Positions 27,126 to 64,000 are shown, counted from the stretch's first letter. The stretch: DNA of 64,000 bases from Thermoplasmata archaeon (GCA_021809545.1 JAKAYL010000001.1:101710-165709), one strand, 5' to 3'. The notes: generated from the sequence alone by a model not told the origin. Numbers and translations: made by a program.

Positions 27126-28160
27126 TCAGAGCGAGACCCAGCTCCGCGAGCCTCCGTCTCCCCCGAGGGAGAATTCGCGCGAGAGCATTCCCCGGGCCTC
27201 CAACGCGGCCACATGTCGCCTCAGGAGCGACGCGGAGGGGGGGCGGCGGCCGTCCTGCCCGAGGTGCTCCGTCACCCGCCGATGAAGGAGGCTCATGGGG
27301 AGGCGTCGTCCCTGTTTTCTCAAACATTCCAGGATCGCAGCATCGACCAGGAGTGGTTTCCGCCGCCCGTCGGGTAGGTGAGGGAAGCCGATGTCCCCTT
27401 CCTCCACCCGGGAAGCCCCCCGGGCCTCCGCGCGTTCCCCCGCCTCCCGGACGAGCTCGACGGCGGCGGCGAGACCCACCCCGCGGGCCCGTGTTCTCTC
27501 GACCACCAAGGTGACGACCTCGGGAGCGGGGGGCCAGGCGAACGACTGCTGGCAAAGCTCGGAGATCCGGGCTCGCAGCTCGGCCGGTGTCGGAGGACGG
27601 ACCGCGATCCGGCGGATCTCCGGCCCTTCCCGGGCCGATTGGGTCGGGTCAAAGCACCCTGAGATCACGACCCGGAGCCCCGGGACCCACTCGACCTCCT
27701 CCGGGTCGAAGAGCGACCAGAGCAGCGGAAGGGAAGGGGTGCTACGCGAGTTGTCCAACCAGAGAACGAAGGGCGTTCCTTCGGCACGAAGACGGCGGGA
27801 GAGGAGGACGGCAAGCTGGCCCGCGGAGAACCCCTTGCCGGTGAACTGCGCGTCGAAATGAGCGAAGATCTCCACCAGGGCCTGGTGGTCCGTGCGGCAC
27901 TTCCGGAGATCGACCCTGAGGACCCGGACCGCCCTGTCCCTGCGGCCCGCAAAGGGGCTGCACGAGAGCACACGGACGACCCGGCCGGCCACGGTCGATG
28001 TTCCGCATCCGGAGGGCCCGGTCACGGCCAACACCTTCCACTCGGGGCCCGGACCCCGGGCTCCCGCTACCTCGTAGATCTCTTCGACTGCGACTCCTAC
28101 CAACGATCCCGCCGGCCCCCAAGGGCGCTCGAGGGCCCAGCGGTCTTTCCAGAGCTCCAT
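27126..28160 (-). CDS. Orc1/Cdc6-family AAA+ protein with degenerate Walker A/B and a C-terminal winged helix
   Basis: Collinear with Orc1/Cdc6 (lid and WH regions align). Walker A reads GPSGCGTS, with no lysine. Walker B reads LWLDNS. I place the start at the ATG complement 28158-28160, about 25 nt from a TATA-like element. The track gives a GTG at 28196. Confidence 0.5.
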   Translation of the reverse strand: MELWKDRWALERPWGPAGSLVGVAVEEIYEVAGARGPGPEWKVLAVTGPSGCGTSTVAGRVVRVLSCSPFAGRRDRAVRVLRVDLRKCRTDHQALVEIFAHFDAQFTGKGFSAGQLAVLLSRRLRAEGTPFVLWLDNSRSTPSLPLLWSLFDPEEVEWVPGLRVVISGCFDPTQSAREGPEIRRIAVRPPTPAELRARISELCQQSFAWPPAPEVVTLVVERTRARGVGLAAAVELVREAGERAEARGASRVEEGDIGFPHLPDGRRKPLLVDAAILECLRKQGRRLPMSLLHRRVTEHLGQDGRRPPSASLLRRHVAALEARGMLSREFSLGGDGGSRSWVSL

Positions 28161-28269
28161 GCAAGGGCCAAGGCTCATGCATATAAGAAATCTCACATAT
28201 CACAGTTGGATACAGCGTGGAGGCCACGGGGCCGAACCCTCCGGGGAGGGCGGTGGAGAGATTCCAGGG

Positions 28270-28300
28270 TTTGCACCAACCGATGCGGGCTTTGCACCAA
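28270..28300 (+). promoter_or_regulatory. two direct repeats GGG(c)TTTGCACCAA spaced 21 nt apart (28270-28279, 28291-28300)
   Basis: Exact 10-mer repeated on the same face of the helix, between the Orc1-like gene and the propeller gene. Confidence 0.35.
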
Positions 28301-28340
28301 AAGTGACTTAATGGGTCTCGGAGAATTCTTCTCCCAAGTT

Positions 28341-46999: not shown

Positions 47000-47209
47000 A
47001 GAGTTCCCTCCTTCCGTGGGAGCGGGCAGATCCGTTCGTGGGTTCGACTCCCAAGATCTCGCGCAGTGTGTGCCATGATGCCAGTGGGCAGGGAGAAGGT
47101 GGAGGTCGTATTTAATGGATGCTGTCGAGGGTGGCAGCGGCGCAACCCACCGCCAGAACCCGGGGCACGGCTCCGGCTTATCTATTCCATCCGTCTCCGT
47201 TTTCCCGCG

Positions 47210-47824
47210 ATGGGGACCAAGGAAGACCGCAGTGCGCGTCTCCTGCAGCAGCGCAGGGAGGAACGGTCCTCCCCGTACCGGCTCTCCAAACTGGGGCACG
47301 ACTTCTACCCCGGGACGCGGGAGTACCTGGAGGAGCTCCGTTCCCTCCTCGAGAAGGAGCTCAAGGAGAACCCGATGTCCCAGAAGGTGGATTTCACGCG
47401 GGGCCAGTACCAGCGGGCCCTCGCCTCGGCCCTCGAGGTGCGCAACCTGCGCATGGGAAAGATCGCCAGCCTCGCAGCGCTCGCCGCGGCGAGCGGCACC
47501 GGCGCGGACGAGCTTCTCCCCGAGGAGAAGGGGCTCTACGAGGCCCTTTTGCGCGAGCTCAAGGCCTTTGCCCACCAGTACGAGTTCGACAGCGCCCGGG
47601 AACGCAGCGTGGACACTCCCCCGGCCGCCACCCCCCAGAGCCCTCCCGCCTCTCGCAAGCAGATGGTCGTCCGCATCGTGGCGGACGACCCCCAGTCCCC
47701 CCTCGAGACGACGGGGATGACCCCTCTCCACAAGGAGGAGATCGCCTCCCTCCCGGAGGAGGCGGCCCGTGCCCTCCTCGACGCAAAGCGTGCCGTCACC
47801 GTAGACACTTCGAAATGCAGCTGA
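47210..47824 (+). CDS. hypothetical alpha-helical protein (possibly replication/GINS-like; unverified)
   Basis: ATG at 47210 with CTTATCTATTCC about 25 nt upstream. Its stop overlaps the RNase Z start by 10 nt. Confidence 0.4.
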   Translation: MGTKEDRSARLLQQRREERSSPYRLSKLGHDFYPGTREYLEELRSLLEKELKENPMSQKVDFTRGQYQRALASALEVRNLRMGKIASLAALAAASGTGADELLPEEKGLYEALLRELKAFAHQYEFDSARERSVDTPPAATPQSPPASRKQMVVRIVADDPQSPLETTGMTPLHKEEIASLPEEAARALLDAKRAVTVDTSKCS

Positions 47825-48720
47825 CCTTCCTCGGCACCGCGGGATCCTGGCCCACAAAGGAGCGCAACGCGAGCGCCGTCGCGCTCGACATGGACACCGA
47901 GGTGGTTCTTCTCGATTGCGGGGAAGGGACCCAGCGCCAGTTCTTCCTCAGCCCGATCTCCTTCATGCGCGTCCGGAGGATCCTCATCACCCATTTCCAC
48001 GGGGACCACTTCCTCGGTCTTCCCGGGCTCATCCAGAGCATGGGGCTGAACAACCGCACCGAACCGATCGACATCTACGGTCCCGCAGAGGTGGAGAGGT
48101 TCGTGGCGGCGATCATGGAACTCGGTCACTTCACCAAGAAGTTTCCCGTGAACGCCCACCCCGTGGAACCCGGAGAGGAGGTCGACCTCGGCACCTATAC
48201 CGTGCGTGCGGCCCGGGCGGCCCATCCCGTCCCCGCCCTCGCCTTCCGCATCCAGGAGAAGGACAAACGCGGGCGCTTCGACGCGGACCGGGCCCACGCC
48301 CTGGGCTGCCGGGGTCGGGATTTTGCCCACCTTGAGAGGGGCGAGACCGTGACCCTGGGGAACGGCACGGTGGTCACTCCGGCCATGGTGATCGGCCCTC
48401 CCCGGCCGGGCCGCTCGGTGGTCTACACGGGGGACACCGCCCCTTCTCCTGAGATCGTCCGTCTGGCCCAACAAGCGGACGTTCTCATCCACGAGGCCAC
48501 CGTTGAGCTCTCCCTGGAGAAGGAGGCCAACGAGTGGGGGCACTCCTCGGCCCGACAGGCGGCGCAGGCCGCCCGCGAGGCCGGGGTGGGCGAGCTCTAC
48601 CTCACCCACTTCTCCTCCCGCTATCCGGATGTGACCCCCCTCGAGAACGAGGCACGGGAGCATTTCGAGCGTTCCGTCGCCGCCCACGACCTGTTCACTA
48701 CCATCCTGCATCAACGGTGA
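47815..48720 (+). CDS. rnz: ribonuclease Z (tRNA 3' endonuclease, MBL fold)
   Basis: N-terminus MQLTFLGTAGSWPTKERN, motif HFHGDHFLGLPGL, and C-terminal ...THFSSRY. Confidence 0.85.
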   Translation: MQLTFLGTAGSWPTKERNASAVALDMDTEVVLLDCGEGTQRQFFLSPISFMRVRRILITHFHGDHFLGLPGLIQSMGLNNRTEPIDIYGPAEVERFVAAIMELGHFTKKFPVNAHPVEPGEEVDLGTYTVRAARAAHPVPALAFRIQEKDKRGRFDADRAHALGCRGRDFAHLERGETVTLGNGTVVTPAMVIGPPRPGRSVVYTGDTAPSPEIVRLAQQADVLIHEATVELSLEKEANEWGHSSARQAAQAAREAGVGELYLTHFSSRYPDVTPLENEAREHFERSVAAHDLFTTILHQR

Positions 48721-51313: not shown

Positions 51314-51605
51314 ACCGGGACCCTCCCTATCCGCGGGGTCCTTGGCCTATCCCCGGAGCAATCCATAGACCAGAACATCGACTTACCGGGATCCGAGCCG
51401 GGCCTCTCCCCGGAGGCGCCCCTCCCGCGGGAGGGTCGGGGGGGGGGTCTGGGACTGACCGTGGATGCGCCAAAAGAGGTGGGCCCCGGACGCGACGGCC
51501 CGAGGAATGCCCGCGCGGTCTGCCGGCCGGAAGGGCACTTCCACGGCTCTTCCCCTACAGCACCGATATGAGGCGAACCGGCTTGCGCTGCAACGAGCGT
51601 GGCCC

Positions 51606-52520
51606 ATGCCCGACGCAACCCTTCTCAGATCCCTCACCCTTTCCGCCAGGGGAAGCCCCCTGAGCCGGGTCCAGGTCCGGCTCGCGGAAGAGGAACTCCG
51701 GCGCCACTTTCCCGGGACCGAGCTTCGCGAGATCTGGCTGACCACCACCGGGGACAGGTCGCGGAAGATGGGGTTCGAGGACCTTCCCACCCCCGGGGTC
51801 TTTGAGAAAGAGGTCGACGAAGCCGTCTTGGACGGCCGGGCCGACCTCGGGATCCACTCCCTGAAGGACATCCCCACCGATCTCCCGAAGGGGCTTGCGA
51901 TCGTCGCTGCGCTGGCGCGGGGACCCTCGGGAGACCTCCTCGTCGGCCGGGACAAGGTCCCCCCGACCATCGGACGCCTTCCCAGCGGCGCCCGCGTGGG
52001 TACCTCGAGCGTGCGGCGGAGGGCGATGGTCCTCTATCACTCCCCGGAAGCCAAACCCGTGCCGCTGAGGGGGAACGTCGGCACACGCGTACGAAAGCTC
52101 GAGGAAGGGGAATGCGATCTGCTGTTGCTGGCCGAGGCGGGCGTGACCCGTCTCGGGCTTCATCCCCCTTCCCGGAAGATCCCCATCAATCTGTGTCCCC
52201 CGGCCCCGGGCCAGGGGATCGTGGCGCTCGTGGCCCGCGCGGACCGGAGCGAAACCTTTTCGGGCCTCCGGGATGCGGCCCCCTACGCTTGGTGGGAGCT
52301 CTTGGTGGAACGGGCCTTCTTGCAGGAGATAGGGGGAGGATGCTCCCAGGCCCTGGGGGGGCAGGCCAACCGGGCCCTCTCCTCCTTCACGGCCGCCGAG
52401 TGGGCGGAGGATGGCCACGCCCAGCGCAGGATCACCGTGAGCAGCAGGGGCCGACGGCCCGAGGAGTTCGGACGGTACGTGGCCGAGCAGCTGCGGGAGG
52501 CGCCGTGGGTAGAACGGTGA
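51606..52520 (+). CDS. hemC: hydroxymethylbilane synthase (porphobilinogen deaminase)
   Basis: LSARGSPLSRVQ..., GRADLGIHSLKDIP, and ...GGGCSQALGG (cofactor Cys). ATG at 51606 in frame in track ORF 51465..52520. Confidence 0.85.
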   Translation: MPDATLLRSLTLSARGSPLSRVQVRLAEEELRRHFPGTELREIWLTTTGDRSRKMGFEDLPTPGVFEKEVDEAVLDGRADLGIHSLKDIPTDLPKGLAIVAALARGPSGDLLVGRDKVPPTIGRLPSGARVGTSSVRRRAMVLYHSPEAKPVPLRGNVGTRVRKLEEGECDLLLLAEAGVTRLGLHPPSRKIPINLCPPAPGQGIVALVARADRSETFSGLRDAAPYAWWELLVERAFLQEIGGGCSQALGGQANRALSSFTAAEWAEDGHAQRRITVSSRGRRPEEFGRYVAEQLREAPWVER

Positions 52521-53278
52521 GGTCCCCTCCCCGGAAAGGCTGGCTCCCGTCCGTCACGTTCCGCCCCGGCACCGTGGTGATCACCGGAGCGGGTCCCGGG
52601 GACCTCGGACACGTCAGTCTCCTCGCCTTCGCCTACCTGCGCAAGGCCGATGTGATCATCTACGACCGGCTGACGGACCACAGCATCTTCCAACATGCGC
52701 GGAAGGGAACGGAGCTCATCTACGCGGGCAAGGGCCCCCGCCGCAAGGTCCAGCAAGCCCGGATCAACCTCCTCCTGCGGGACCAGGCACGGAAAGGGAA
52801 GCGGGTGCTCCGCTGGAAGGGGGGCGACCCGTACATCTACGGGCGCGGCTACGACGAGCGCCAATTCTTGGAGGAGGCGGGGATCCCGGTCCGGTGCCTC
52901 CCCGGCATATCGAGCGTGACCGGCCTTCCCACCATCGCCGGGATCCCGGTGCTCCACCGGGGCACTGCGAGCACCTTTGGGGTCTTCACCGGAGAGCTGG
53001 GAAAAGAGAATACGTCGGACGGGATCTCCCTGCAGCGGATCGCCCTCGCCTGCGACACCCTGATCGGGGTCATGGTGGTCAAGAAGCTCGGTCTCATCGT
53101 CAAAGAGCTCCGGAAAGTGCGCCGCGCGGACGAGCCCGTGGCGCTCATCGTGGAGGGAGCCACGCCCCGGCAGAAGGTCCTGCGGACCACACTTGCCAAG
53201 CTTCCCGAGCTCGCCCGGCGCCAGAAGGTGACCTCTCCCGCGCTCCTCATCGTGGGAAAGGTGGCGGCCCTCCCGTGA
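52517..53278 (+). CDS. cobA: uroporphyrinogen-III C-methyltransferase (SUMT)
   Basis: VVITGAGPGDLGHVSL..., GGDPYIYGRG and the canonical SUMT layout. GTG start overlapping the hemC stop (GTGA). A downstream GTG is an alternative. Confidence 0.8.
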   Translation: MRSPPRKGWLPSVTFRPGTVVITGAGPGDLGHVSLLAFAYLRKADVIIYDRLTDHSIFQHARKGTELIYAGKGPRRKVQQARINLLLRDQARKGKRVLRWKGGDPYIYGRGYDERQFLEEAGIPVRCLPGISSVTGLPTIAGIPVLHRGTASTFGVFTGELGKENTSDGISLQRIALACDTLIGVMVVKKLGLIVKELRKVRRADEPVALIVEGATPRQKVLRTTLAKLPELARRQKVTSPALLIVGKVAALP

Positions 53279-54294
53279 CCGGCCGGTTCCTTCGGACCCT
53301 CCGGGGCGAATCGACCGATGGGGTCCCGATCTGGCTGATGCGCCAGGCGGGCCGCTATCTTCCCGGCTACCGGAAGCTGCGCGAACAGCACGGTATCCTC
53401 GAGCTCGCCAAGGATCCGCGCCTCGCCTCCGAGGTCGCGCTCGAGCCCCTCCGCCTCTTCGATCTCGATGCGGCCATCGTCTTCGCGGACATCGTCCATC
53501 CGCTGGAGGGAACGGGAGTCCCCCTCCGCCTGGACCCGGGGACAGGACCCGTGGTCCTGCATCCGGTCCGGAGGTCCGAGGACCTGGAGACGCTCCGCGC
53601 CTCCCATGACGTTGCGAAGGAGACGGCGTTCGTGGGCGAGACCATCCGCCGGCTCCGGGACGCGACGGACAAACCAGTCCTGGGCTTCTCCGCGGCGCCC
53701 TTCACCCTTGCCTGCTATCTGGTGGAGGGAGCCTACGCCCGCGACTTCCCCGAGGTCCGCCGCATGATCTTGGGTCAGCCGGACCTCTTCCGCAAGCTCC
53801 TCATGCACCTCACGGGCGTCGTCATCGACTACCTCCGCATGCAGGAACGGGCCGGGGCCCAGGCGCTCCAGGTCTTTGACACCTGGGCCGGCCTCCTCTC
53901 CCCCGGGCAGTACAGCAAGTTCGCCCAGCCCTCCCTGAGCGAGGTGCTGACCTCGGTCGATGTCCCGACCCTCTACTTCTCCACCTCCTCCCGCCACCTC
54001 CTCGAGCTCCAGGCCAGCCTCGGGGCCACGGGGATCAGCGTGGATTGGCGCGTCCCGATCGACGAGGCACGGAAGGTGGTCGGGGCACCCACGGTGCTCC
54101 AGGGGAACCTCGATCCCGCCGCCCTGCTCGCATCCCCCGAGGCGATGGAGGTCGCCGCGGGCGACGTGCTCCGGCGTCTGCCCCGGGACGGACACCACAT
54201 CTTCAACCTCGGCCACGGTGTGCTTCCGCAGACGGACCCGCAAAACGTAAAACGGCTGGTCGACTTCGTGCACGCACACAGCGGAGGAGAATAG
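53275..54294 (+). CDS. hemE: uroporphyrinogen decarboxylase
   Basis: PIWLMRQAGRYLPGY (the UroD PxWxMRQAGR signature). GTG start overlapping the cobA stop (GTGA). Confidence 0.85.
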   Translation: MTGRFLRTLRGESTDGVPIWLMRQAGRYLPGYRKLREQHGILELAKDPRLASEVALEPLRLFDLDAAIVFADIVHPLEGTGVPLRLDPGTGPVVLHPVRRSEDLETLRASHDVAKETAFVGETIRRLRDATDKPVLGFSAAPFTLACYLVEGAYARDFPEVRRMILGQPDLFRKLLMHLTGVVIDYLRMQERAGAQALQVFDTWAGLLSPGQYSKFAQPSLSEVLTSVDVPTLYFSTSSRHLLELQASLGATGISVDWRVPIDEARKVVGAPTVLQGNLDPAALLASPEAMEVAAGDVLRRLPRDGHHIFNLGHGVLPQTDPQNVKRLVDFVHAHSGGE

Positions 54295-54298
54295 GAGC

Positions 54299-55360
54299 AT
54301 GGATCTCGCCAAAGCTCCGCACGTTCTCACGTGGGAGCTCACCCGCGCCTGCGGCCTCAAGTGCCGTCACTGCCGCGCGAACGCGATCCCCCGGCGCAAT
54401 CCTCGCGAGCTCACCCTTGCCGAGGTGGAGGCGGTGCTCGACGACCTCTCGACCCGGTTCGAGATCCCCCCGCTCATGGTCTTCACGGGAGGGGACCCCG
54501 TCGAGCGGCCCGATCTCCGGGAGATCCTGAAGGCGAGCGTCGCTCGCAAGCTCCACACGGCCGTCTCTCCCAGCGTCACCCCCCTCCTCACCCGGAAGGT
54601 CCTCGCCGAGTGGAAGGAGATCGGTGTCAAGACGGTCTCCATCAGCATCGACGGGCCTTCGGCCGCGGTCCACGACGGCTTCCGACGCATGGACGGAACC
54701 TTCGTCGCCTCGCTCGAACGCGCGCGGGACGTCACCGAGCTGGGCATGAACCTGCAGGTCAACACCTCCGTCTGCGGGGACACCGTCGCCGGGATGCCGT
54801 CGATGGGGGAGCTCGTCAAGGAGCTCAAGGTCTCGAGCTGGGAGGTCTTCTTCGTGGTGCCGACAGGCCGGGGAAGGGCACTTCCCAAGATCACCACGGA
54901 GGATACCGAGGCCACCCTGAAGTGGCTCGCGCTCTACTCGAAGACCGTGGATTTCCGGGTGACGGCGATCGCCGCCCCCCAGTTCCGACGGCTCCTGCTC
55001 CAGAACGTGCCCGGAACGAAGTGGCCCACCATCCCCGCGGTCCGCGAAGCCCAGGGATTCGTCTTCATCGACCACTTGGGCGAGGTCTACCCCAGCGGCT
55101 ATCTCCCCGTCTCCGCGGGAAACGTCCGGCACACGCCGCTGACCTCCCTCTACCGCGACTCGCAGCTCTTCCGGGAGCTCCGGGACCCGGACCTCCTCCG
55201 GGGCCGGTGCGGGGCCTGCGAGTACAAGCGCATCTGTGGCGGTTCCCGGGCCCGCGCCTACGCCGTCACAGGAGACCTCCAGAACGAGGACCCGGCGTGC
55301 CCCTACATCCCTGAGGGGTGGGAGGAGCGGCCCACCGTGGTCCTTCCGGTGCACGCCTAG
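54299..55360 (+). CDS. radical SAM/SPASM-domain protein (AhbD/NirJ-like; candidate coproheme decarboxylase or heme synthase)
   Basis: CGLKCRHC is a Cx3Cx2C radical SAM motif. A C-terminal Cys-rich twitch/SPASM domain is present (GRCGACEYKRICGGSRARAY...CPY). GGAGGAG SD lies 9 nt upstream. Sits in the heme cluster. Confidence 0.6.
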   Translation: MDLAKAPHVLTWELTRACGLKCRHCRANAIPRRNPRELTLAEVEAVLDDLSTRFEIPPLMVFTGGDPVERPDLREILKASVARKLHTAVSPSVTPLLTRKVLAEWKEIGVKTVSISIDGPSAAVHDGFRRMDGTFVASLERARDVTELGMNLQVNTSVCGDTVAGMPSMGELVKELKVSSWEVFFVVPTGRGRALPKITTEDTEATLKWLALYSKTVDFRVTAIAAPQFRRLLLQNVPGTKWPTIPAVREAQGFVFIDHLGEVYPSGYLPVSAGNVRHTPLTSLYRDSQLFRELRDPDLLRGRCGACEYKRICGGSRARAYAVTGDLQNEDPACPYIPEGWEERPTVVLPVHA

Positions 55361-56361: not shown

Positions 56362-57096
56362 TCAGAGTCCGAGGGGGTCGAGGCCCTCCTTCAGGACCTT
56401 CCTCTCGATTGTGGCCAGCACCTCGGAGACCGCCGACTTGGAGAGACCAAGAACCTTGGCGATCTCGGTTAGCGTGATCCGGCGGGGGGTGTCCCAGTAG
56501 CCCGAGTTGCGGGCCATACGGTACAGCTCCAACTGTCGTGTCGTGAGCCCCCCTGGCGAACCGCGCGTCCTCGCAGCAGTACGGCTGAGGTTGCCGAGTA
56601 CGACGTCCGCTCCTCCCTCCCGTAACCGGGAGTACATTTGCTGGATCTTCTGCCGGGAAGCCCGCACGTTGAAGAAGAGACGATCTTCCTCGACCTGGAT
56701 GGGCAGCATGGGGGCGATGCCCAGGGCCTGGAGCGTGTCGATCATGAGCCCTGCGCGGGCCGTCATCCTCAGGAGCATCCCCCCAGAGGAAGAGCCGAGG
56801 ACCTCCAGTAGGAACCTCCGAGAGACTTCTAGGATCTTGGGGGGAAGGGCAGGGTCCGAAAGTTCCCCCCGGACCTCCACATCCGTGAGGACGAGGCCAT
56901 TTCCCAGGGGGAAGAGCGCGACGATACGGATGTCCAGGGCAGGGAACTCCATCGCCAGGACCGGGCAGGCACAATCGTCCGGGTCGATCCGCAATTCGAA
57001 CCGGGCCGTCATGATGTTCTCCCCGACGGAGGAGAGTTCTCCCACATCAAGCGGGTGACCGAAGGTCACCGGCGAGGAAGCGGGGATGGCCGCCAT
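56362..57096 (-). CDS. HTH_10 (bacterio-opsin-activator-like) family transcriptional regulator with N-terminal sensor domain
   Basis: The C-terminal ...TTRQLELYRMARNSGYWDTPRRITLTEIAKVLGLSKSAVSEVL... is typical HTH_10. ATG at complement 57094-57096. Confidence 0.6.
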   Translation of the reverse strand: MAAIPASSPVTFGHPLDVGELSSVGENIMTARFELRIDPDDCACPVLAMEFPALDIRIVALFPLGNGLVLTDVEVRGELSDPALPPKILEVSRRFLLEVLGSSSGGMLLRMTARAGLMIDTLQALGIAPMLPIQVEEDRLFFNVRASRQKIQQMYSRLREGGADVVLGNLSRTAARTRGSPGGLTTRQLELYRMARNSGYWDTPRRITLTEIAKVLGLSKSAVSEVLATIERKVLKEGLDPLGL

Positions 57097-57284
57097 GTTC
57101 ACACCCCCTCCGGGGCCGCCAAACTTCCGCAGTCTCCCCGGACGGGACCGGAAGGGGGGCGGGGGCCGTTGGGTTGCGTTTTCGGAAGGGGGCTCCGGAA
57201 GACGGGGATTGACATTTCCATGCTCTACCTTATCCTAAGGACCGATATCCACCGCGTCCCGTACCCGGACGACGTTCAGGTTCG

Positions 57285-57473: not shown

Positions 57474-58265
57474 ATGAAGGCACCCCTCCCCTCTTCGGCC
57501 ATCACCTTCGACCTCTGGCACACGCTCATCTACCTTGGCCCCCGGGCCGAGGAACGCTACGTGCAACGACAGATCTCCCTGGCCGTCGAGACCCTGGAGG
57601 TCGCGCGACCGCTTCCGGGAGCCCCCCGGCGGAGCCGGGAGGACCTCGCGGCCATCTTCCAGCAGGAAAGGGTCCGCGCGGTCGCGGAAGCCGACAAGGG
57701 ACACGTCGTGTCCCTCACGGAGCAGTTGACCCGGGTGGCGCGGGCCGCGGGACGGCAGCCACGCCCCGCAGCATACCTGACGGCACTGGGAAAAGAGATC
57801 GCCCGTACCCCCTTCCGGATGGCTCCCGGGGCGATCGCGACCCTTCGGAGACTCCGTTCGGAGGGCTACCGGATTGCCGTGGTCTCGAACACCGTGGGGG
57901 AGCCGGGGGCTTTCCTGCGTCCCATCCTTCACCGGATGGGGCTCGACCGCGGGTACGAGTTCGCCCTCTTTAGCGACGAGGAGCGATGGACGAAGCCCGC
58001 ACCGGCCATCTTCCGGAAGGCCCTCCGGGCCTTGGGCTCCCGCCCCTCGCAGGCGCTCCATGTCGGGGACGGATGGGGCGACCTCGAAGGCGCTCGCCGG
58101 GCCGGATACCGTGCCGGGATCTACTTCACGGGGCTCCAGGAGTACGGGCCCAGCTACCGGGCGCTCCACGCTGCCTCGAATACGAAGGACCTTGGCGCGG
58201 ATTTCCGGATCCAACGCTTGGCGGAGCTACCCGCCCTGGCGCGGAAGCTCCTGCCGGTACCCTAG
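57474..58265 (+). CDS. HAD-family hydrolase
   Basis: N-terminal ITFDLWHTL (DxD-variant motif I), ...VSNT..., ...GDGW.D... ATG at 57474 in frame in track ORF 57291..58265. Confidence 0.65.
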   Translation: MKAPLPSSAITFDLWHTLIYLGPRAEERYVQRQISLAVETLEVARPLPGAPRRSREDLAAIFQQERVRAVAEADKGHVVSLTEQLTRVARAAGRQPRPAAYLTALGKEIARTPFRMAPGAIATLRRLRSEGYRIAVVSNTVGEPGAFLRPILHRMGLDRGYEFALFSDEERWTKPAPAIFRKALRALGSRPSQALHVGDGWGDLEGARRAGYRAGIYFTGLQEYGPSYRALHAASNTKDLGADFRIQRLAELPALARKLLPVP

Positions 58266-58333
58266 CCCGTCACCTTAGGCTTCGGACCTCTCCAGGGATC
58301 CCAAGCGGGACCTCCGTCCACCGTCCTTCTTCC

Positions 58334-58342
58334 CTTATATAT
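58334..58342 (+). promoter_or_regulatory. TATA CTTATATAT 26 nt upstream of the giant surface-protein ATG
   Basis: Seen directly; no SD, consistent with leaderless mRNA. Confidence 0.45.
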
Positions 58343-58363
58343 CGACGCCTCCTTCCCTGCCCC

Positions 58364-61300
58364 ATGCCAAGGCGCATCAACCCCCTCCTTGCCCGAGCGA
58401 TCCCTGTCGTGCTCCTGATCGTCCTTCTCGCGGTTCCCGGGAACGGCGTCCTCACCTCCCCCTCTCCTCGGTCGGTTACCCTGGGAGCGGGGTCGTCTTC
58501 CCTGGCCGGGCTCTCCTCCCCCTTCGCACCGGTCCAGTACCCGGTCACGTTCCAAGAGAGGGGGCTCCCGGCCGGGACGAACTGGACCGTCGTGCTGAAC
58601 GGCTCGGCGACCTACTCTCTGGGTTCCTTCGCCTCCTTCTCGGTACCCAACGGAAGCTACTCCTACCATCTTCCCGTCGTAGCAGGGTTCACCCCTTCCC
58701 CCTCCTCGGGCCGCGTGCTCGTCACCGGGACCCCGGTCCTCACGACGATCCACTTCCTTCCCGCGGCGGTCCAGAACACGCTCTCCCTGTTCAACAACAC
58801 GCTGCTGCCGGGCAACGCCACCGCCCAGAGCGGCAGCCAGCCCTTCGCCTCGGCCTTCGATGCGGCCACCGGCACGCTCTTCGTTGACGACTACGCCACC
58901 AGCAACGTGGCGATGGTCAACACCACGACCCGGAGCGTGACGGGCTACGTGCCCCTCGTCGGGCTCCCCTGTGGCATCGCCTACGACAGCACGAACGGCT
59001 TCCTCTACGCGTCCGTGCTCACCAACGGCGCCCTCGCCGCCGTGAACGGGACGACCGGATCGGTGACGGGCTATCTCCACGTCGGGAAATCTCCCTGCGC
59101 GGTGGCCTACGATCCTGTGAACGACAAGATCTACGTGACCAACACCGAGAGCAACTCGGTGGTCGTCGTGAACCCCTCCAGCTTCTCGGTGACCGCGACC
59201 GTCGCGGTAGGCAACGTGCCTCGGGCGCTCGCCGTGGACACCGTGACCGGCAACGTCTACGCGGTCTCCATGAACGGGAACAAGCTGGTCGAGATCAGCG
59301 GGGCGACCAACACGGTCCTCGCGAACACGACCACCCTTCCCAGCCCCGATGCGATCGCCTACGATGCGCACACCACCAACCTCTATGTCGCGAGCTTCAA
59401 CGACAGCACGGTCACCGTGTACGCGGTCGCCACGCTCAAGGCCGTGGGAAATGTCTCGGTGGGCTCCAAGCCCTTCGCCCTGGCCTACGAACCCTCCAAC
59501 TTCGCGGTGTACTCAGCGAACTACTTCTCCGACAATGTGTCGGCGATCTCGGGCCTCACGCTCGCCGCGACCCTGACCGCAGGGGCAAACCCGGAGGGGG
59601 TCGCGGTCGATGCCTCAGGGAACGTTTACGTTGCCAACCGAGGATCCAGCAACCTCACCCTCCTCGCGGCCGCGACGAACCAGGTCATCGGCTCCATCCC
59701 CGTGGGATGGTCACCCTCGGCCGTGGCCTACGACCCACTGGCCACAGCGTTCGTCGTGGCCAACCAGGTCACGGACACTCTCTCCGTCGTGAGCACCTCC
59801 ACCGGACGGTCGGTCGGCACCGTCCCGGTGGGAAGCGGTCCCGGGGCGCTGCTCTACGACGGGGTCGACCACCTCCTCTTCGTAGCCAACACCCGCTCCG
59901 ACAACCTGACGGTCCTCAACCCCACTACCTTCGCCCCGGTCGCCAGTCTCCCGGTGGGATCGGACCCCGTGGCCCTGGCCTACGACACGGCCAACGCACG
60001 GCTGTACGTGGCGAACAGACTCTCCGGGAACCTGAGCATCATCGATCCCGCGACCCCGTCGGTCGTCGGGTCCCTGGCCACGGGAGGGTCCCCCGGGGCG
60101 CTCCTCGTCGATCCCCTCAATGGCCTCCTCTACGCGGTGGGCGTCTCCGCCCAGAATCTGACAGCCTACAACGTCACCTCAGGAAAGGTCGCGGGTACGG
60201 TCGCGGTCGGAAGCTTCCCCTCGGGGATCGCGATGGACCCCTCGACCGGGTTCCTCTACGTGGCGAATTACGCGTCGAACTCCGTCACGGTCGTGAACGG
60301 CACGGACAACACCGTGGTCTCGTCCTTCTCCGCCGGCTCGGAGCCGGCGGCCATCGCCTTCGATGCGGAGACCCGGGGCGTCGAGGTGGTCGACTTCGCC
60401 TCCAACAGCCTGGCGATCTACTCGACGGAGACCCAAACGCTCGTCGGGCTCCTTCCCCTCAACAACTCCGGACCGGTGGCGGAGGACCTTTCCCCCTCCA
60501 CAGGCATGGTGGCCGTCGCGGACCAGCTCTCGGGGGCCCTCTCGCTCGTCCACCTTCAAGTCCTCCCGGCGGTCTTCCCCGTCTCCTTCACGGAGTCCGG
60601 ACTACCCTCCGGGACGAACTGGTCCGTCACGGTGAACGGTACCTCCTCCTTCTCCGTCGGGCCGGCGATCCGGTTCTCCCTGGTGAACGGGTCGTACTTC
60701 TACACGGTCGCCCCCGTGCCGGGCTTCGTCTCCACTCCGACCTCGGGTGATCTCTCGGTCAACGGCACCATCCTCACCGTCCCGGTCTCCTTCACCCGGG
60801 TGATCCTCCACTACACCGTTTCCTTCACCGAGCTCGGACTCCCTGCGGGAACCAACTGGTCCGTCTCCGTGAACGGGTCGACCCAAGGCTCCAACACCAC
60901 CTCGATCTCCTTCCTGCTGCCGAACGGGAACTACCCGTATTCCGTGGGAAGTTCCCTAGGGTACGGCCCTTCGCCCAGGTCCGGGACCCTGACCGTCCTC
61001 GATGGGCCGGTGACCCAGATCGTGGAGTTCCAGCTTCCCGTCTACAACATCACCTTCCAAGAGAAGGGCCTTCCCGCGAACACCTCCTGGTCGGTCGCGC
61101 TCAACGGTTCCGCAGCGACCTCCCGTACTTCGGCGATCGCCTTCGCGAACGGCTCGGCGCAACCCAACGGGACGTATCCCTTCCACATCGACAGCCTGCC
61201 CGGCTACGTCCCGGAGCCGGCGGCTGGGAACGTGATCGTGAACGGCTCGTCCCGGGTCGTTTCGGTGACCTTCGTCCAGATGACCTATTCCGTCACCTTC

Positions 61301-61705
61301 TCCGCCACCAACCTTCCTTCACCGAAGAACTGGTCGGTCACGATGGACGGGACCACCCGCTACTCGACCACGGCCACGCTCCAGTTCTTCCTCCCCAACG
61401 GGACCTACGACTACACCGTAGGGAAGCTGAAGGGGTACGACCGGCTCCCGGCGGGAGGCGCGATCGTGGTGAACGGTCACGCGCAGTACCTGGTCATCAA
61501 GTTCCTGACCCCTCCGCCCTCCGGGTTCACCGGGCTCATCGAGTCTCCGGCCTTCTATGCGGCACTGGCCACCGCCGCGGTCGTGGCCGTCGTCTTCCTG
61601 TACTTCGTGCGCAAGAAGAAGAAGAAGGCCGCCACCGCTGCCGAGGAAACGGAGAGCGAGGACGAGTCCGAAGAGCTGACCCCGAACGAGACGACCAAGG
61701 AGTAG
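58364..61705 (+). CDS. giant cell-surface glycoprotein: signal peptide, one N-terminal and five C-terminal 'GLPxGTNWSV' modules, a YVTN-type beta-propeller array, C-terminal TM anchor and Lys-rich acidic tail
   Basis: ATG at 58364 with CTTATATAT 26 nt upstream. About 14 roughly 40-aa YVTN-like repeats (...YVANxxSNxVTVxN...). Repeated FxExGLPxGTNWSVxVNGS...NGSYxY modules. Ends ...AVVFLYFVRKKKKKAATAAEETESEDESEEL. Confidence 0.7.
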   Translation: MPRRINPLLARAIPVVLLIVLLAVPGNGVLTSPSPRSVTLGAGSSSLAGLSSPFAPVQYPVTFQERGLPAGTNWTVVLNGSATYSLGSFASFSVPNGSYSYHLPVVAGFTPSPSSGRVLVTGTPVLTTIHFLPAAVQNTLSLFNNTLLPGNATAQSGSQPFASAFDAATGTLFVDDYATSNVAMVNTTTRSVTGYVPLVGLPCGIAYDSTNGFLYASVLTNGALAAVNGTTGSVTGYLHVGKSPCAVAYDPVNDKIYVTNTESNSVVVVNPSSFSVTATVAVGNVPRALAVDTVTGNVYAVSMNGNKLVEISGATNTVLANTTTLPSPDAIAYDAHTTNLYVASFNDSTVTVYAVATLKAVGNVSVGSKPFALAYEPSNFAVYSANYFSDNVSAISGLTLAATLTAGANPEGVAVDASGNVYVANRGSSNLTLLAAATNQVIGSIPVGWSPSAVAYDPLATAFVVANQVTDTLSVVSTSTGRSVGTVPVGSGPGALLYDGVDHLLFVANTRSDNLTVLNPTTFAPVASLPVGSDPVALAYDTANARLYVANRLSGNLSIIDPATPSVVGSLATGGSPGALLVDPLNGLLYAVGVSAQNLTAYNVTSGKVAGTVAVGSFPSGIAMDPSTGFLYVANYASNSVTVVNGTDNTVVSSFSAGSEPAAIAFDAETRGVEVVDFASNSLAIYSTETQTLVGLLPLNNSGPVAEDLSPSTGMVAVADQLSGALSLVHLQVLPAVFPVSFTESGLPSGTNWSVTVNGTSSFSVGPAIRFSLVNGSYFYTVAPVPGFVSTPTSGDLSVNGTILTVPVSFTRVILHYTVSFTELGLPAGTNWSVSVNGSTQGSNTTSISFLLPNGNYPYSVGSSLGYGPSPRSGTLTVLDGPVTQIVEFQLPVYNITFQEKGLPANTSWSVALNGSAATSRTSAIAFANGSAQPNGTYPFHIDSLPGYVPEPAAGNVIVNGSSRVVSVTFVQMTYSVTFSATNLPSPKNWSVTMDGTTRYSTTATLQFFLPNGTYDYTVGKLKGYDRLPAGGAIVVNGHAQYLVIKFLTPPPSGFTGLIESPAFYAALATAAVVAVVFLYFVRKKKKKAATAAEETESEDESEELTPNETTKE

Positions 61706-61736: not shown

Positions 61737-62675
61737 ATGGGGCTCTCGGGGACAGTGGTGTTGCTCGCCCACGGGGCGGTCACTCGCCCCGATGATGTCG
61801 AAACGTACTACCGTCACATCCGCGAAGGGAAACCGCTCGTCCCCGCCGTGCTCGAGGCCCTGAAGCAGCACTACGCGGCCATCGGGGGCAGCTCCCCGCT
61901 CAACGGGATCACGCGCGTGGTGGCGCACGATCTTGAGGTGGAGCTGGCGCAACGGCATGGGCCCGGGAGCTTCTCCGTCCGCTTCGGATTCCGTCACACC
62001 CCTCCCTTCGCGGAGGAGGTGATGGCCGAGGTGGGCGCCCGGGCGCAAGGGAAAGTGGTCGCGATCCCGATGGCGCCCCACGGTTCCCCCTTTGTCGAAC
62101 AAGGATATGCGCGGGCCATGGAGAAGGGAAGGGAAGCGGCGAGGGGAGGTGCCCAACTCCTCTTTGCCGGATCCTGGCACTTGGAGCCAAAGCTCCTCGA
62201 ATGCTGGAGCCAGGCCCTGGACGCAGCACGGAAGGGGCTCCCGGCCGCGGTTTCAGGACACCCCCTCGTGGTCTTCACGGCCCACAGCCTCCCGGTGCGC
62301 GTGCTCCAGGGGACGGATTACGAAAGGGAGCTCTGCGAGAGCGCCGCCGAGATCTGCCGGAGGTCCGGGATCCCGGAGGACGGGTACCGGGTGGCCTGGC
62401 AGAGCGCCAGCCCGAGCGGGGAGCCGTGGATGGGGCCCGACATCCGCGAGGTCCTCCGACAGGCTTCCGACGAGGGCCGCAGCGCCGTCGTGGTCGTCCC
62501 TCAGGGCTTCGTGGCCGACCACCTCGAGGTGCTCTACGATCTCGACCTTGTCGCACAAAAGGAGGCGAGGACACTAGGACTGGCATTCGCACGGGCGGCG
62601 ATGCCGAACACCTCCCCCCTCTTCGTCGGAGCCCTCGCCGACCTCACAGAGCGTACCCTTCGCTCGGGACCATGA
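61737..62675 (+). CDS. hemH: ferrochelatase (coproporphyrin/protoporphyrin ferrochelatase)
   Basis: ...HSLP...QSASPSGEPWMGPDI...HLEVLYDLD... is the ferrochelatase core. Confidence 0.8.
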   Translation: MGLSGTVVLLAHGAVTRPDDVETYYRHIREGKPLVPAVLEALKQHYAAIGGSSPLNGITRVVAHDLEVELAQRHGPGSFSVRFGFRHTPPFAEEVMAEVGARAQGKVVAIPMAPHGSPFVEQGYARAMEKGREAARGGAQLLFAGSWHLEPKLLECWSQALDAARKGLPAAVSGHPLVVFTAHSLPVRVLQGTDYERELCESAAEICRRSGIPEDGYRVAWQSASPSGEPWMGPDIREVLRQASDEGRSAVVVVPQGFVADHLEVLYDLDLVAQKEARTLGLAFARAAMPNTSPLFVGALADLTERTLRSGP

Positions 62676-64000
62676 TCCGGATCGCGATCGTCGGGGGAGG
62701 GATCGCTGGCCTCGCCGCGGCCTGGGAACTGCGGCCCCTTGCGGAGTCGGGACGGGCCGAGGTGACCCTCTTCGAGGCCTCGGAACGGTTGGGCGGCGCG
62801 GTCCGGACCGACCGCGAGAGCGGAGCGGTGATCGAGTGCGGCCCCGACTCCTTCCTTGCCCGCAAGCCCGAGGGCATCACCCTCGTCCGGGAGATGGGGA
62901 TGGACAAGGAGCTGATCGAGGTACGGAATCCGGGGAGCTACCTCTATCTCCGGGGCAAGTTCCGCCCCTTTCCTCCCGTGACGCCTGCGGGACTTCCCGC
63001 CAGCCTCTCCAGCATGGCCCATTCTCACCTGCTCTCCCCCGCGGGAAAGCTGAGGGCCCTGGGCGATCTTTTCGTCCCCCGGAGCCGCAGCCTGTCTCGA
63101 GGAGAGGACGTCTCGCTGGGAGATTTCCTCCGGCGTAGGATGGGGCGGGAGATCGTCGAGCACCTGGCGGGTCCGGTGGCCGGCGGGACGCACCTGACCG
63201 ACATCCACGAACTCAGCCTCCGGGCCACCTATCCTGACCTCGCGAGGATGGAAAAGGAACATCGGAGCCTCCTCCTCGCGCTCCTCCGGGAGAGAACGCC
63301 TCCGGCCCAAGGGGGCGCTCCGAGGTCTCCCTTCCTCACCTTGCGGAACGGACTGTCCTCCCTCGTCGAGGGGATCGAGGCTCGGCTCCCGGCGAACGCA
63401 GTTCGGAAGAGCTCCCCGGTGGAAACGATCTCGAGGGGAGATGGGGGGCAGTACTTCCTGCGGACCGGGGGACGGGAGGAGGGCCCCTTCGATGGGCTTG
63501 TTCTTTCGGCCCCTGCTCCCGCACTCTCGGCGATGTTGAGCAAGTCGTTCCCGGAGTTGGCCCGAGCCTTCTCGGAGTTCCGCTACTCTCCCCTCGTGGT
63601 CGTGGGCCTGGTCTATCCGCAAGTTCCGGAGAACATCCCCCTGGACAAGGGAGGATTCATGGTGCCCCGGGACGAGCCGCTCCCCATTTCCGGGGTTTCC
63701 TGGGCGACCCGGAAATGGGGGTTTGCCCCACCGGAGGGCGGGGAGGTGCTTCGGGTCTATCTGGACGAGAAGAGGAACCCCGGGATCCTCTCCCTTTCCG
63801 ATGAGGAGATACTCGAGAGGGCCAGGAAGGGAGTGGCCACGACCATGGGGATCACCGGGGCGCCTCGCTACTCCAGGGTCTACCGTCACGGAGCGGCGCT
63901 GCCTCAGTACGCCGTGGGTCACCCGGAGCGCGTGGCCCGGGTGAGGTCCCTGGCGGCGCAGTGGCCCCGCGTCGCGCTCGCCGGAGCACTTCTCGAAGGC
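62672..64000 (+). CDS. hemY: protoporphyrinogen/coproporphyrinogen oxidase (HemY/CgoX family), 3' end outside window
   Basis: N-terminal FAD motif IAIVGGGIAGLAAAW plus the HemY-like core. The ATG overlaps the hemH stop (ATGA). The ORF runs off the window end. Confidence 0.8.
   Translation, partial: MIRIAIVGGGIAGLAAAWELRPLAESGRAEVTLFEASERLGGAVRTDRESGAVIECGPDSFLARKPEGITLVREMGMDKELIEVRNPGSYLYLRGKFRPFPPVTPAGLPASLSSMAHSHLLSPAGKLRALGDLFVPRSRSLSRGEDVSLGDFLRRRMGREIVEHLAGPVAGGTHLTDIHELSLRATYPDLARMEKEHRSLLLALLRERTPPAQGGAPRSPFLTLRNGLSSLVEGIEARLPANAVRKSSPVETISRGDGGQYFLRTGGREEGPFDGLVLSAPAPALSAMLSKSFPELARAFSEFRYSPLVVVGLVYPQVPENIPLDKGGFMVPRDEPLPISGVSWATRKWGFAPPEGGEVLRVYLDEKRNPGILSLSDEEILERARKGVATTMGITGAPRYSRVYRHGAALPQYAVGHPERVARVRSLAAQWPRVALAGALLEG

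What the first reader, a model, noticed from the sequence alone, without database searches (positions are those of the whole stretch)
58364..61705. Giant surface protein combining a YVTN beta-propeller array with a repeated, sequon-embedding 'GLPxGTNWSV' module
There is one N-terminal and five C-terminal copies of a roughly 70-aa module (F-x-E-x-GLP-x-GTNWS/TV-x-V/LNGS...NGSY-x-Y). The N-glycosylation sequons NWS/NWT and NGS are part of the conserved core. That implies obligate glycosylation of a beta-sandwich domain. The modules flank about 14 YVTN-type propeller repeats. The protein ends in a TM helix plus a KKKKK/acidic tail. I cannot place the module in a known named family from memory.
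Basis: partly seen in the sequence, partly recalled or inferred. Interest (0 to 1): 0.5.

Follow-up and report, generated by a model that had tools for sequence, protein, structure and literature searches.

The report
Glycan-studded archaeal surface protein stalk module
This gene encodes an ordinary kind of membrane-anchored archaeal cell-surface protein, a double beta-propeller head on a stalk of small beta-sandwich domains. The stalk domain belongs to a very large, unnamed archaeal family of a well-known fold that appears to be selected to carry N-linked sugars.

Summary
The ORF at 58364-61705 (+) is real. It encodes 1113 aa and is identical to a called gene in a Thermoplasmata MAG.

- **Layout:** signal peptide, one module, 14 YVTN blades, four more modules, a TM helix, then an RKKKKK/acidic tail. 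The model matches solved tandem seven-bladed propeller proteins.
- **Family size:** 8393 clusters at 50% identity, up to 44 copies per protein. Named members are mostly Thermoplasmata, with some from ARMAN-5 and Thermoproteota. The usual layout is a variable head, then modules, then a TM helix and a basic tail.
- **Sequons:** family-wide, only the NG[ST]Y sequon is conserved. NWS and the first NGS are not. Even so, Asn and Ser/Thr at +2 co-occur with a column-stratified odds ratio of 3.5. 66% of module Asn lie in sequons, about 2.9 per module. This supports selection for N-glycosylation, though not "obligate" glycosylation of one fixed core.

Verdict: a known kind of surface protein with an uncurated stalk-domain variant. 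Interest is modest.

The parts
58334..58341 (+). TATA-box-like element (TTATATAT) upstream of the start codon. It implies the gene has its own archaeal promoter and a leaderless or short-leader transcript.
   Evidence: Read directly. It is an AT-only octamer in a 65% GC region and ends 22 nt before the ATG at 58364. That it functions as a promoter is inferred.
58364..61705 (+). Coding sequence of the 1113-aa surface protein, stop codon included.
   Evidence: It is identical to a called gene in GCA_027387255.1. Per-codon-position GC for the longer ORF 57986-61705, which contains this CDS, is 0.60/0.53/0.85, typical of coding sequence here.
58364..58447 (+). N-terminal signal peptide (aa 1-28, MPRRINPLLARAIPVVLLIVLLAVPGNG).
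   Evidence: Sequence. The full-length model has a helix at aa 13-22 followed by a low-confidence linker. The cleavage site is inferred.
58532..58759 (+). Module copy 1 (aa 57-132), N-terminal to the propellers.
   Evidence: HMM domain, 89.6 bits. Coordinates. Eight strands in the full-length model.
58763..60556 (+). Fourteen YVTN-type blades (aa 134-731), read as two tandem seven-bladed beta-propellers.
   Evidence: TIGR02276 at 177.6 bits and TIGR03866 at 215 bits. Pfam Lactonase and YNCE are above their cut-offs. 12 regular anchors 40-42 aa apart. 57 strands, pLDDT mostly above 90. phmmer E 2e-33 to PDB 1L0Q. Best full-length Foldseek hits are double seven-bladed propeller proteins.
60572..60799 (+). 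Module copy 2 (aa 737-812).
   Evidence: 90.4 bits. The AlphaFold model of this copy has pLDDT 98.1 and eight strands.
60809..61033 (+). Module copy 3 (aa 816-890).
   Evidence: 96.7 bits.
61043..61279 (+). Module copy 4 (aa 894-972), with a 4-residue insertion (ANGS) and a shifted NTS sequon.
   Evidence: 88.5 bits. Alignment.
61280..61507 (+). Module copy 5 (aa 973-1048), the most divergent (NLPSPKNWSV).
   Evidence: 86.9 bits. 33% identity to copy 1.
61550..61609 (+). C-terminal transmembrane helix (aa 1063-1082, AFYAALATAAVVAVVFLYFV).
   Evidence: Sequence. A helix at aa 1073-1080 in the model. The same TM-plus-basic ending recurs in most family members.
61610..61702 (+). Cytoplasmic tail: RKKKKK stop-transfer cluster, then an acidic stretch (AATAAEETESEDESEELTPNETTKE).
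   Evidence: Sequence. The topology (N-terminus outside, C-terminus inside) is inferred from the positive-inside rule.

Best explanation
This is a type-I membrane-anchored, N-glycosylated cell-surface protein of a Thermoplasmata archaeon.

**Proposed mechanism**
- The signal peptide directs export.
- The C-terminal helix and RKKKKK cluster hold the protein in the membrane, with the acidic tail in the cytoplasm.
- Four tandem prealbumin/CnaB-like beta-sandwich modules form a stalk. This stalk holds a head of two seven-bladed YVTN propellers away from the membrane.
- A fifth module sits N-terminal to the head.
- The 33 ectodomain sequons, 18 of them in the 388 module residues, are the likely targets of the archaeal oligosaccharyltransferase. 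On this view the stalk doubles as a glycan-bearing scaffold.
- The propeller head most likely serves as a binding or scaffolding platform rather than an enzyme.

**Wider family**
- The module is a Thermoplasmata-centred stalk domain reused under many different heads: propellers, thermopsin protease, PKD, Sortilin-like and unknown domains.
- Together these proteins probably make up a heterogeneous glycoprotein coat.

**Shown versus inferred**
- Shown: domain layout, fold class, family size and architectures, sequon enrichment and N/+2 co-selection.
- Inferred: topology, actual glycosylation, stalk function, head function and membership of a coat.
For: **Layout**
-.

**Propeller head**
- TIGR02276 scores 177.6 bits against a 27.85 cut-off.
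- The best solved relative is the Methanosarcina mazei surface-layer YVTN+PKD fragment 1L0Q, E 2e-33.
- The full model matches double seven-bladed propellers.

**Module fold**
- AlphaFold pLDDT 98.1, pTM 0.86.
- Foldseek TM 0.72-0.76 to UafA and SdrD.
- Profile hit to a SpaA-like prealbumin domain, E 0.0044, aligned on the PNGxY motif.
- hhalign probability 81% to the PEGA-type terminal domains of family members.

**Family**
- 8393 representatives at E<=1e-3, up to 44 copies per protein.
- The typical architecture is head + modules + TM + RRRK tail.
- Named members are Thermoplasmata MAGs.

**Glycosylation signal**
- Sequons are 2.3-fold above shuffles in the whole protein and 3.5-fold above in the modules.
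- Family-wide Mantel-Haenszel odds ratio for N(i) with S/T(i+2) is 3.5, bootstrap 95% interval 3.1-3.9. It is 3.3 without the conserved column.
- Other offsets give 0.77-1.09. D, Q, G, K, H and E at the same offset give 0.64-1.05.
- 66% of module Asn lie in sequons, against 29-32% for Asp and Gln.

**Literature**
- Thermoplasmatales N-glycosylate NXS/T sites on surface filaments (PMC12448462).
- They carry an unordered, unidentified 'likely glycoprotein' outer layer (PMC12448462).
- YVTN (COG3391) genes are the ones annotated as surface or S-layer proteins in Picrophilus and Cuniculiplasma (PMC5155288).
Against: - There is no experimental evidence for expression, localisation or glycan occupancy of this protein or of any family member.
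- No model coordinates were available, so inter-module contacts, exposure of the sequon Asn and the position of the N-terminal module could not be examined.
- The strongly conserved E-x-G-L-P-x-G-T-x-W loop (E, G, L and W at 90% or more) is unexplained by a purely passive spacer role.
- The gene lies inside a heme-biosynthesis gene run, and this is conserved in a 48%-identical orthologue. That could point to a different role.
- Phylogenetic non-independence could inflate the sequon statistic, although the offset and residue controls argue against this.
Confidence: 0.7

Rival explanations
1. It is a true S-layer protein. The propeller heads would self-assemble into a paracrystalline lattice above the membrane, with the modules as the anchoring stalk.
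For: - The best solved relative is annotated 'Surface layer protein' (1L0Q).
- YVTN/COG3391 genes were annotated as the Picrophilus S-layer protein (PMC5155288).
Against: - Most Thermoplasmatales lack an ordered S-layer, and their outer layer is described as heterogeneous and unordered (PMC12448462, PMC5155288).
- The stalk module is shared by thousands of proteins with many different heads. This fits a mixed coat better than a one-protein lattice.
- Lattice formation cannot be tested from sequence.
Confidence: 0.1
2. The protein acts in heme or iron handling at the cell surface, for example uptake, delivery or a redox step. It would be functionally tied to the heme-biosynthesis genes around it.
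For: - The gene sits between a radical SAM/SPASM gene and ferrochelatase plus a HemY-like oxidase. hemC, a methylase and URO-D lie just upstream.
- The order radical SAM - this gene - ferrochelatase - oxidase is kept in a 48%-identical orthologue.
- Only 31 bp separate its stop codon from the ferrochelatase start.
- Weak NCBIfam similarity to hydrazine synthase beta and lactonase-type NosZ propellers.
Against: - It has its own TATA-like promoter.
- Downstream genes (Cas4, FTHFS, HTH_10) are also syntenic in the orthologue. The conservation therefore looks like general local synteny between related genomes.
- A 35% homologue lies in an unrelated context.
- The protein has only two Cys (aa 203 and 245), so it can carry no CxxCH motif.
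- All the NCBIfam enzyme models score far below their cut-offs.
Confidence: 0.07
3. The module is itself an adhesive or glycan-binding unit rather than a spacer. The invariant E-x-GLP-x-GT-x-W loop and the aromatic residues would form a ligand site, so arrays of 5 to 44 copies would act as multivalent adhesins.
For: - Loop residues E, G, L and W are conserved at 90% or more, more strongly than most core strand positions.
- Some proteins are almost nothing but modules.
- Some structurally related domains are carbohydrate-associated, for example the DUF3823 and rhamnogalacturonan lyase domains.
Against: - The top structural matches are non-binding stalk domains: SdrD and UafA B repeats, pilin CnaB domains and NOMO.
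- The loop may instead form the inter-module joint.
- No ligand evidence exists. This rival is compatible with much of the main explanation.
Confidence: 0.13
4. The sequons are a by-product rather than a selected feature. Asn-Gly is favoured at tight beta-hairpin turns and the protein is very rich in Ser/Thr, so N-x-S/T arises without any need for glycosylation.
For: - In the model, three NG pairs (aa 23-24, 40-41 and 65-66 of the module) lie exactly between consecutive strands.
- A bacterial SpaA-like domain has the same LPNGDY turn without a sequon.
- S+T make up 21.8% of the protein.
- NWS and the first NGS are not conserved across the family.
Against: - Composition-preserving shuffles give 5.2 +/- 1.9 sequons in the modules against 18 observed.
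- At the conserved turn, P(S/T at +2) is 0.95 when Asn is present and 0.50 when it is not.
- The column-stratified odds ratio of 3.5 is specific to Asn and to offset +2. It persists without the conserved column and with one module per protein.
Confidence: 0.1

Closest known systems
Methanosarcina mazei surface-layer protein fragment (PDB 1L0Q; tandem YVTN beta-propeller and PKD domains)
   Same: Both are archaeal surface proteins in which a seven-bladed YVTN propeller is followed by small beta-sandwich domains. It is the best sequence match among solved structures (E 2e-33; 23% identity in Foldseek).
   Different: - Here there are two propellers (14 blades).
- The sandwich domains are prealbumin/CnaB-like modules rather than PKD domains.
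- One module precedes the propellers.
- The protein ends in a TM helix with a charged tail.
CnaB-type stalk domains of Gram-positive surface proteins (SdrD and UafA B repeats; SpaA, RrgB and BcpA pilin domains; Pfam SpaA PF17802 / Cna_B PF05738)
   Different: - No Pfam hit at threshold; 1 of 103 copies touches SpaA, at E 0.006.
- No conserved Lys for an isopeptide bond.
- Few acidic residues, so no SdrD-like calcium sites.
- TM anchor instead of LPXTG.
- Archaeal, and loaded with N-glycosylation sequons.
PEGA / CarboxypepD_reg domains (Pfam PF08308, PF13620; transthyretin-like clan)
   Different: - The window's five copies give no PEGA or CarboxypepD_reg hit, even at E<=10.
- The E-x-GLP-x-GT-x-W loop and the NG[ST]Y sequon are specific to this family.
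COG3391 (YVTN) 'surface protein / S-layer protein' genes of Picrophilus torridus and Cuniculiplasma
   Same: They come from the same archaeal class and share the propeller type and the predicted surface location (PMC5155288). NCBI and JGI name the window's homologues 'YncE family protein' or 'YVTN family beta-propeller protein'.
   Different: Those genes are known only from annotation. I could not fetch their sequences to test whether they carry the module.
NOMO (BOS complex) rod of tandem prealbumin-like domains
   Different: It is a eukaryotic ER protein with no sequence relationship at threshold.

Membership tests
YVTN beta-propeller repeat proteins (TIGR02276; Pfam YNCE PF21783 / Lactonase PF10282) | Repeated ~42-aa YVTN blades scoring above the curated cut-offs. 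| tested here: met
   TIGR02276 scores 177.6 bits against 27.85, with 9 stretches. PF10282 scores 60.2 against 21.7 and PF21783 scores 53.1 against 27.1. There are 12 regular anchors plus 2 degenerate blades.
YVTN beta-propeller repeat proteins | Blades close into seven-bladed propellers. | tested here: met
   The model has 57 strands over aa 134-731 at pLDDT mostly above 90. The best full-length matches are proteins with two seven-bladed propellers (2ymu, 1nr0, Utp12/13). The 2x7 arrangement was not inspected in coordinates.
CnaB / SpaA prealbumin-fold stalk domains | Prealbumin-like beta-sandwich fold. | tested here: met
CnaB / SpaA prealbumin-fold stalk domains | Match to the Pfam models (PF05738, PF17802) at the gathering score. 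| tested here: not met
   None of the five window copies hits them at E<=10. Only 1 of 103 family copies touches SpaA, at E 0.006.
CnaB / SpaA prealbumin-fold stalk domains | Intramolecular isopeptide triad: Lys in the first strand, Asn/Asp in the last, and a catalytic Glu/Asp. | tested here: not met
   No column of the 582-copy alignment has Lys as its major residue. Glu at column 8 is conserved (85%) but has no Lys partner.
PEGA / CarboxypepD_reg (transthyretin-like clan) | Match to PF08308 or PF13620 at the gathering score. | tested here: not met
   The window copies give no hit. Only separate membrane-proximal domains of some relatives pass PEGA. The remote relation is supported by hhalign probability 81% and by fold.
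Archaeal N-glycoproteins | N-x-S/T sequons on the extracellular part, in excess of chance. | tested here: met
   33 ectodomain sequons against 14.8 +/- 3.3 expected. Family-wide odds ratio 3.5.
Archaeal N-glycoproteins | Glycans actually attached at those sites. | not testable with these tools
   This needs glycoproteomics. Only indirect support exists, from Thermoplasmatales filament structures (PMC12448462).
S-layer proteins | Self-assembly into a regular two-dimensional lattice covering the cell. | not testable with these tools
   Only annotation-level resemblance to 1L0Q.
PGF-CTERM / archaeosortase substrates | A C-terminal PGF motif, TM helix and short basic end recognised by the NCBIfam sorting-signal model. 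| tested here: not met
   No such family appears among the NCBIfam hits at E<=1. There is no PGF motif, and a 31-residue tail follows the helix.
Thermopsin (peptidase A5, PF05317) | Presence of the thermopsin catalytic domain. | tested here: not met
   The window protein gives no PF05317 hit. The domain occurs in other module-bearing proteins (P0342; a module-only fragment is named 'thermopsin precursor').

The most novel reading that the evidence does not exclude
The module family may be the common glycan-bearing stalk of the still unidentified, unordered 'exterior protein layer' that replaces an S-layer in Thermoplasmata. In that case its nearly universal NG[ST]Y sequon would be needed for folding or acid stability. 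Its presence in ARMAN-5 giant proteins would then reflect exchange of coat parts between these episymbionts and their Thermoplasmatales hosts.
Probability: 0.25. Interest if true: 0.6.

Novelty: new variant of a known kind. Interest (0 to 1): 0.35.

Why it matters
- **The protein as a whole is ordinary.** Archaeal surface proteins with YVTN propellers on beta-sandwich stalks have been known since structure 1L0Q.
- **What is useful is the module.** It defines a very large domain family (8393 clusters at 50% identity). Pfam and NCBIfam do not name it, so thousands of Thermoplasmata proteins are currently 'hypothetical'.
- **A profile would help annotation.** It would label these proteins as surface proteins and mark off their unknown head domains.
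- **Link to an open question.** A 2025 cryo-ET study left open what makes up the disordered glycoprotein coat of S-layer-less Thermoplasmatales (PMC12448462). This family offers concrete candidates to test.
- **Glycosylation evidence without a glycoproteome.** The Asn/+2 Ser-Thr co-selection statistic gives sequence-only evidence that these stalks are selected as glycan carriers.

Tried and rejected
- **Sequence libraries.** Pfam and NCBIfam scans of the whole protein, of the five copies at E<=10 and of 103 family copies gave only scattered sub-threshold hits (pulA_all-beta, DUF1214, Cadherin_4, Fn3_arc and others). I reject these as chance or summed weak repeats.\n- **First homologue search.** A search with the 5-copy profile found only 3 proteins, because an 80-aa profile has too few bits against 5.8 billion sequences. 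The four-copy query and the exhaustive profile search showed the true family size.\n- **Tool failures.** The search for related loci with the module alignment failed because no stretch was conserved enough. The afdb50 fold library was unavailable.\n- **Inconsistent look-up.** The listing of cluster members reported the exact protein as absent. However, an identical 1113-aa protein, P0284, and the called gene were found. I treat the first result as a look-up miss.\n- **Head domains.** Pfam scans of the heads of 12 other module proteins gave almost nothing: DUF2341, PKD, Sortilin-Vps10. No common head emerged.\n- **Literature.** The thermopsin-family paper (PMC3842238) does not mention C-terminal repeats. 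Four literature searches found no description of the module.\n- **Cultured species.** Two look-ups of 20 family representatives returned only MAG names, so presence in Cuniculiplasma, Oxyplasma, Thermoplasma or Picrophilus could not be shown.\n- **Longer ORF.** The ORF from 57986 was rejected as the start. It overlaps the HAD gene, gene callers use 58364, and the TATA box lies at 58334.\n- **Heme role.** A heme-related role was considered and ranked low.
Full report
**1. The observation**

The region holds one long ORF on the + strand. The mechanical ORF starts at 57986. The real start is the ATG at 58364, for three reasons:
- The product is then 1113 aa and begins with a typical signal peptide.
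- It is 100% identical to a gene called with the same start in NCBI assembly GCA_027387255.1, contig DAHXSH010000008.1.
- An AT-only TTATATAT box lies at 58334-58341, ending 22 nt before the ATG, in a 65% GC genome.

The five module copies lie at aa 57-132, 737-812, 816-890, 894-972 and 973-1048.
- They share 33-44% identity.
- Each scores 87-97 bits against a family HMM.
- Nothing else in the six-frame translation of the window matches the HMM.
- So there are one N-terminal and four C-terminal copies, not five, each about 76-79 aa.

Between the modules lie YVTN blades.
- TIGR02276 scores 177.6 bits against a 27.85 cut-off.
- Twelve anchors of the form P-x-x-[IVL]-A-[YV]-D recur every 40-42 aa.
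- The full-length AlphaFold model (mean pLDDT 84.5, propeller region mostly above 90) has 57 strands between aa 134 and 731. That fits 14 four-stranded blades.

The protein ends with AFYAALATAAVVAVVFLYFV, then RKKKKK and an acidic tail.

It has 34 N-x-S/T sequons against 14.8 +/- 3.3 in composition-preserving shuffles. The modules have 18 against 5.2 +/- 1.9.

**2. What the module is**

No sequence library names it.
- Pfam and NCBIfam give nothing for the module in the whole protein.
- They give nothing for the five copies, even at E<=10.
- No family matches more than 3 of 103 diverse copies.

The fold is clear.
- An AlphaFold model of copy 2, built on a 103-sequence alignment, has pLDDT 98.1 and eight strands.
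- Foldseek gives TM 0.72-0.76 to the B repeats of UafA and SdrD.

Two weak sequence bridges agree with the fold assignment.
- The family profile hits a 'SpaA-like prealbumin fold domain' (9vo5) at E 0.0044, aligned on the shared LPNGxY turn.
- Some family members end in a true PEGA domain (30-34 bits against a 20.8 cut-off). The module profile aligns to these domains with hhalign probability 81%.

The module lacks the features that define CnaB proper.
- It has no conserved lysine, so no isopeptide bond.
- It has few acidic residues.

I therefore file it as a divergent archaeal family of the transthyretin-like sandwich class, not as a member of any named Pfam family.

**3. How widespread it is**

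- An exhaustive profile search of 1.84 billion cluster representatives found 8393 proteins at E<=1e-3. Of these, 4006 are at E<=1e-30, and one protein carries up to 44 copies.
- Every named source is archaeal and nearly all are Thermoplasmata MAGs.
- Exceptions are giant ARMAN-5 (Candidatus Parvarchaeum) proteins and one Thermoproteota MAG protein.
- The dominant architecture is a variable N-terminal head of 200-900 aa, then 3-20 modules, a TM helix and an RRRK-type basic cluster with a Pro- or acid-rich tail.
- Heads include YVTN propellers, thermopsin (P0342), PKD and Sortilin-like repeats, DUF2341, and many with no Pfam match.
- Among YVTN-headed relatives, modules are almost always only C-terminal. 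The extra N-terminal module is peculiar to this protein, its two 48%-identical orthologues and a few others.

**4. The sequon question**

Across 2392 distinct copies, only the NG[ST]Y site is conserved: N 84%, S/T 87%, sequon 80%.
- The Asn of the first NGS motif is present in 34% (one search gives 24% and 33% on the smaller set).

In the model, the three NG pairs lie exactly at hairpin turns. They therefore have a structural reason to exist. A bacterial relative has LPNGDY at the same turn.

Sequons are nevertheless selected.
- At every column where Asn is reasonably frequent, S/T at +2 is commoner when Asn is present. Examples are 0.95 against 0.50 at the conserved turn and 0.90 against 0.51 at the NWS column.
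- The column-stratified Mantel-Haenszel odds ratio is 3.5.
- Other offsets give 0.77-1.09. D, Q, G, K, H and E at the same offset give 0.64-1.05.
- Bootstrapping over proteins gives 3.1-3.9. Leaving out the conserved column gives 3.3. Using one copy per protein gives 3.5.
- 66% of all module Asn lie in sequons, against 29-32% of Asp and Gln. Copies carry 2.9 sequons on average, and only 2.8% carry none.
- In the propellers, a blade sequon (S-x-N-[VL]-[ST]) recurs and is kept in 40-63% of homologues.

This is strong indirect evidence that these proteins are glycan carriers. It does not show that one fixed core must be glycosylated.

**5. Likely mechanism**

Shown:
- the domain order;
- the fold classes;
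- the family architectures;
- the sequon statistics.

Inferred from standard membrane-protein rules and from the behaviour of the matching stalk domains:
- The signal peptide drives export.
- The helix and the RKKKKK cluster fix the C-terminus in the cytoplasm.
- The four modules form an extended, glycosylated stalk, perhaps about 15 nm long at 3.5-4 nm per domain. That length is my estimate.
- The stalk lifts a double seven-bladed propeller above the membrane.

Supporting points:
- The full model's best matches are tandem seven-bladed propeller proteins.
- The ectodomain is only 7.6% charged and rich in S, T, N, V and A. In my experience this composition is typical of surface proteins of acidophiles.
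- The literature fits. Thermoplasmatales glycosylate NXS/T sites on pili and archaella, and they carry a dense, unordered, unidentified 'likely glycoprotein' layer (PMC12448462).
- YVTN/COG3391 genes are the ones annotated as surface or S-layer proteins in this order (PMC5155288).

What the propeller head binds is unknown. A binding or scaffold role is my best guess.

**6. Rivals**

- **Lattice-forming S-layer protein.** This is possible but fits the diversity of heads poorly.
- **Heme- or iron-linked role.** The conserved position between a radical SAM gene and ferrochelatase suggests it. Against it are the gene's own promoter, the wider local synteny, the loss of linkage in a 35% homologue and only two cysteines.
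- **Adhesive module.** The module may itself be adhesive, because its E-x-GLP-x-GT-x-W loop is the most conserved part. I could not inspect coordinates to see whether that loop is an inter-module joint.
- **Sequons as a by-product.** This view is contradicted.

**7. Verdict**

- The protein is a new member of a known kind, an archaeal YVTN surface protein.
- The module is an uncurated sequence family of a well-known stalk fold, with a built-in sequon and family-wide selection for sequons.
- I rate it a new variant of a known kind, of modest interest.
- Its main value is for annotation and as a source of candidates for the unidentified Thermoplasmatales outer layer.

Noticed in passing
window 51465-55360 and 61737-64000: The surface-protein gene interrupts a run of tetrapyrrole and heme genes. 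Upstream are porphobilinogen deaminase, a TP_methylase, URO-D and a radical SAM/SPASM protein. Downstream are ferrochelatase and a HemY-like amino oxidase. A URO-D + ferrochelatase + HemY-type set is, to my knowledge, not the usual archaeal siroheme-dependent route. The order radical SAM - surface protein - ferrochelatase - oxidase is kept in a 48%-identical orthologue.
   Followed up: partly
window 44216-47857 (-): A second large predicted surface protein (1213 aa). It has PKD, Y_Y_Y, He_PIG and Big_13 Ig-like domains but none of the GLPxGTxW modules.
   Followed up: partly
window 27858-29879 (+): A 673-aa protein with PQQ_2 (BamB-type) beta-propeller repeats. This is another propeller protein in the same window, without the module.
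   Followed up: no
proteins P0217, P0410, P0411 (not in the window): The module occurs 28-30 times in giant (about 4100 aa) proteins whose 90% cluster includes Candidatus Parvarchaeum acidophilus ARMAN-5 entries (EFD92471.1, EFD92729.1, with DUF2341). ARMAN cells attach to Thermoplasmatales hosts (PMC5498576, title and abstract only). Shared coat parts, gene transfer or mis-binning are all possible.
   Followed up: no
proteins P0019, P0086, P0352, P0435 (not in the window): In several family members the last domain before the TM helix is a bona fide PEGA domain rather than a standard module (30-34 bits against a 20.8 cut-off). The window protein lacks this membrane-proximal PEGA domain.
   Followed up: yes
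window 58796-58804 (aa 145-147 region, LFNNTLLPGN): A short L-x-NNT-L-x-PGN motif between the N-terminal module and the first blade carries a sequon. That sequon is kept in 81% of 43 aligned homologues, which makes it the best conserved sequon outside the modules.
   Followed up: no
window 56362-57102 (-) and 57474-58265 (+): An HTH_10 (bacterio-opsin-activator-type) regulator and a HAD hydrolase lie between the radical SAM gene and the surface-protein gene. In the 48% orthologue's locus no gene is called between the radical SAM gene and the surface-protein gene, so these two look like an insertion.
   Followed up: no
tool behaviour: The exact-sequence look-up reported the 1113-aa protein as absent from the collection. 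However, an identical protein (P0284) and its encoding contig were returned by the other tools.
   Followed up: partly
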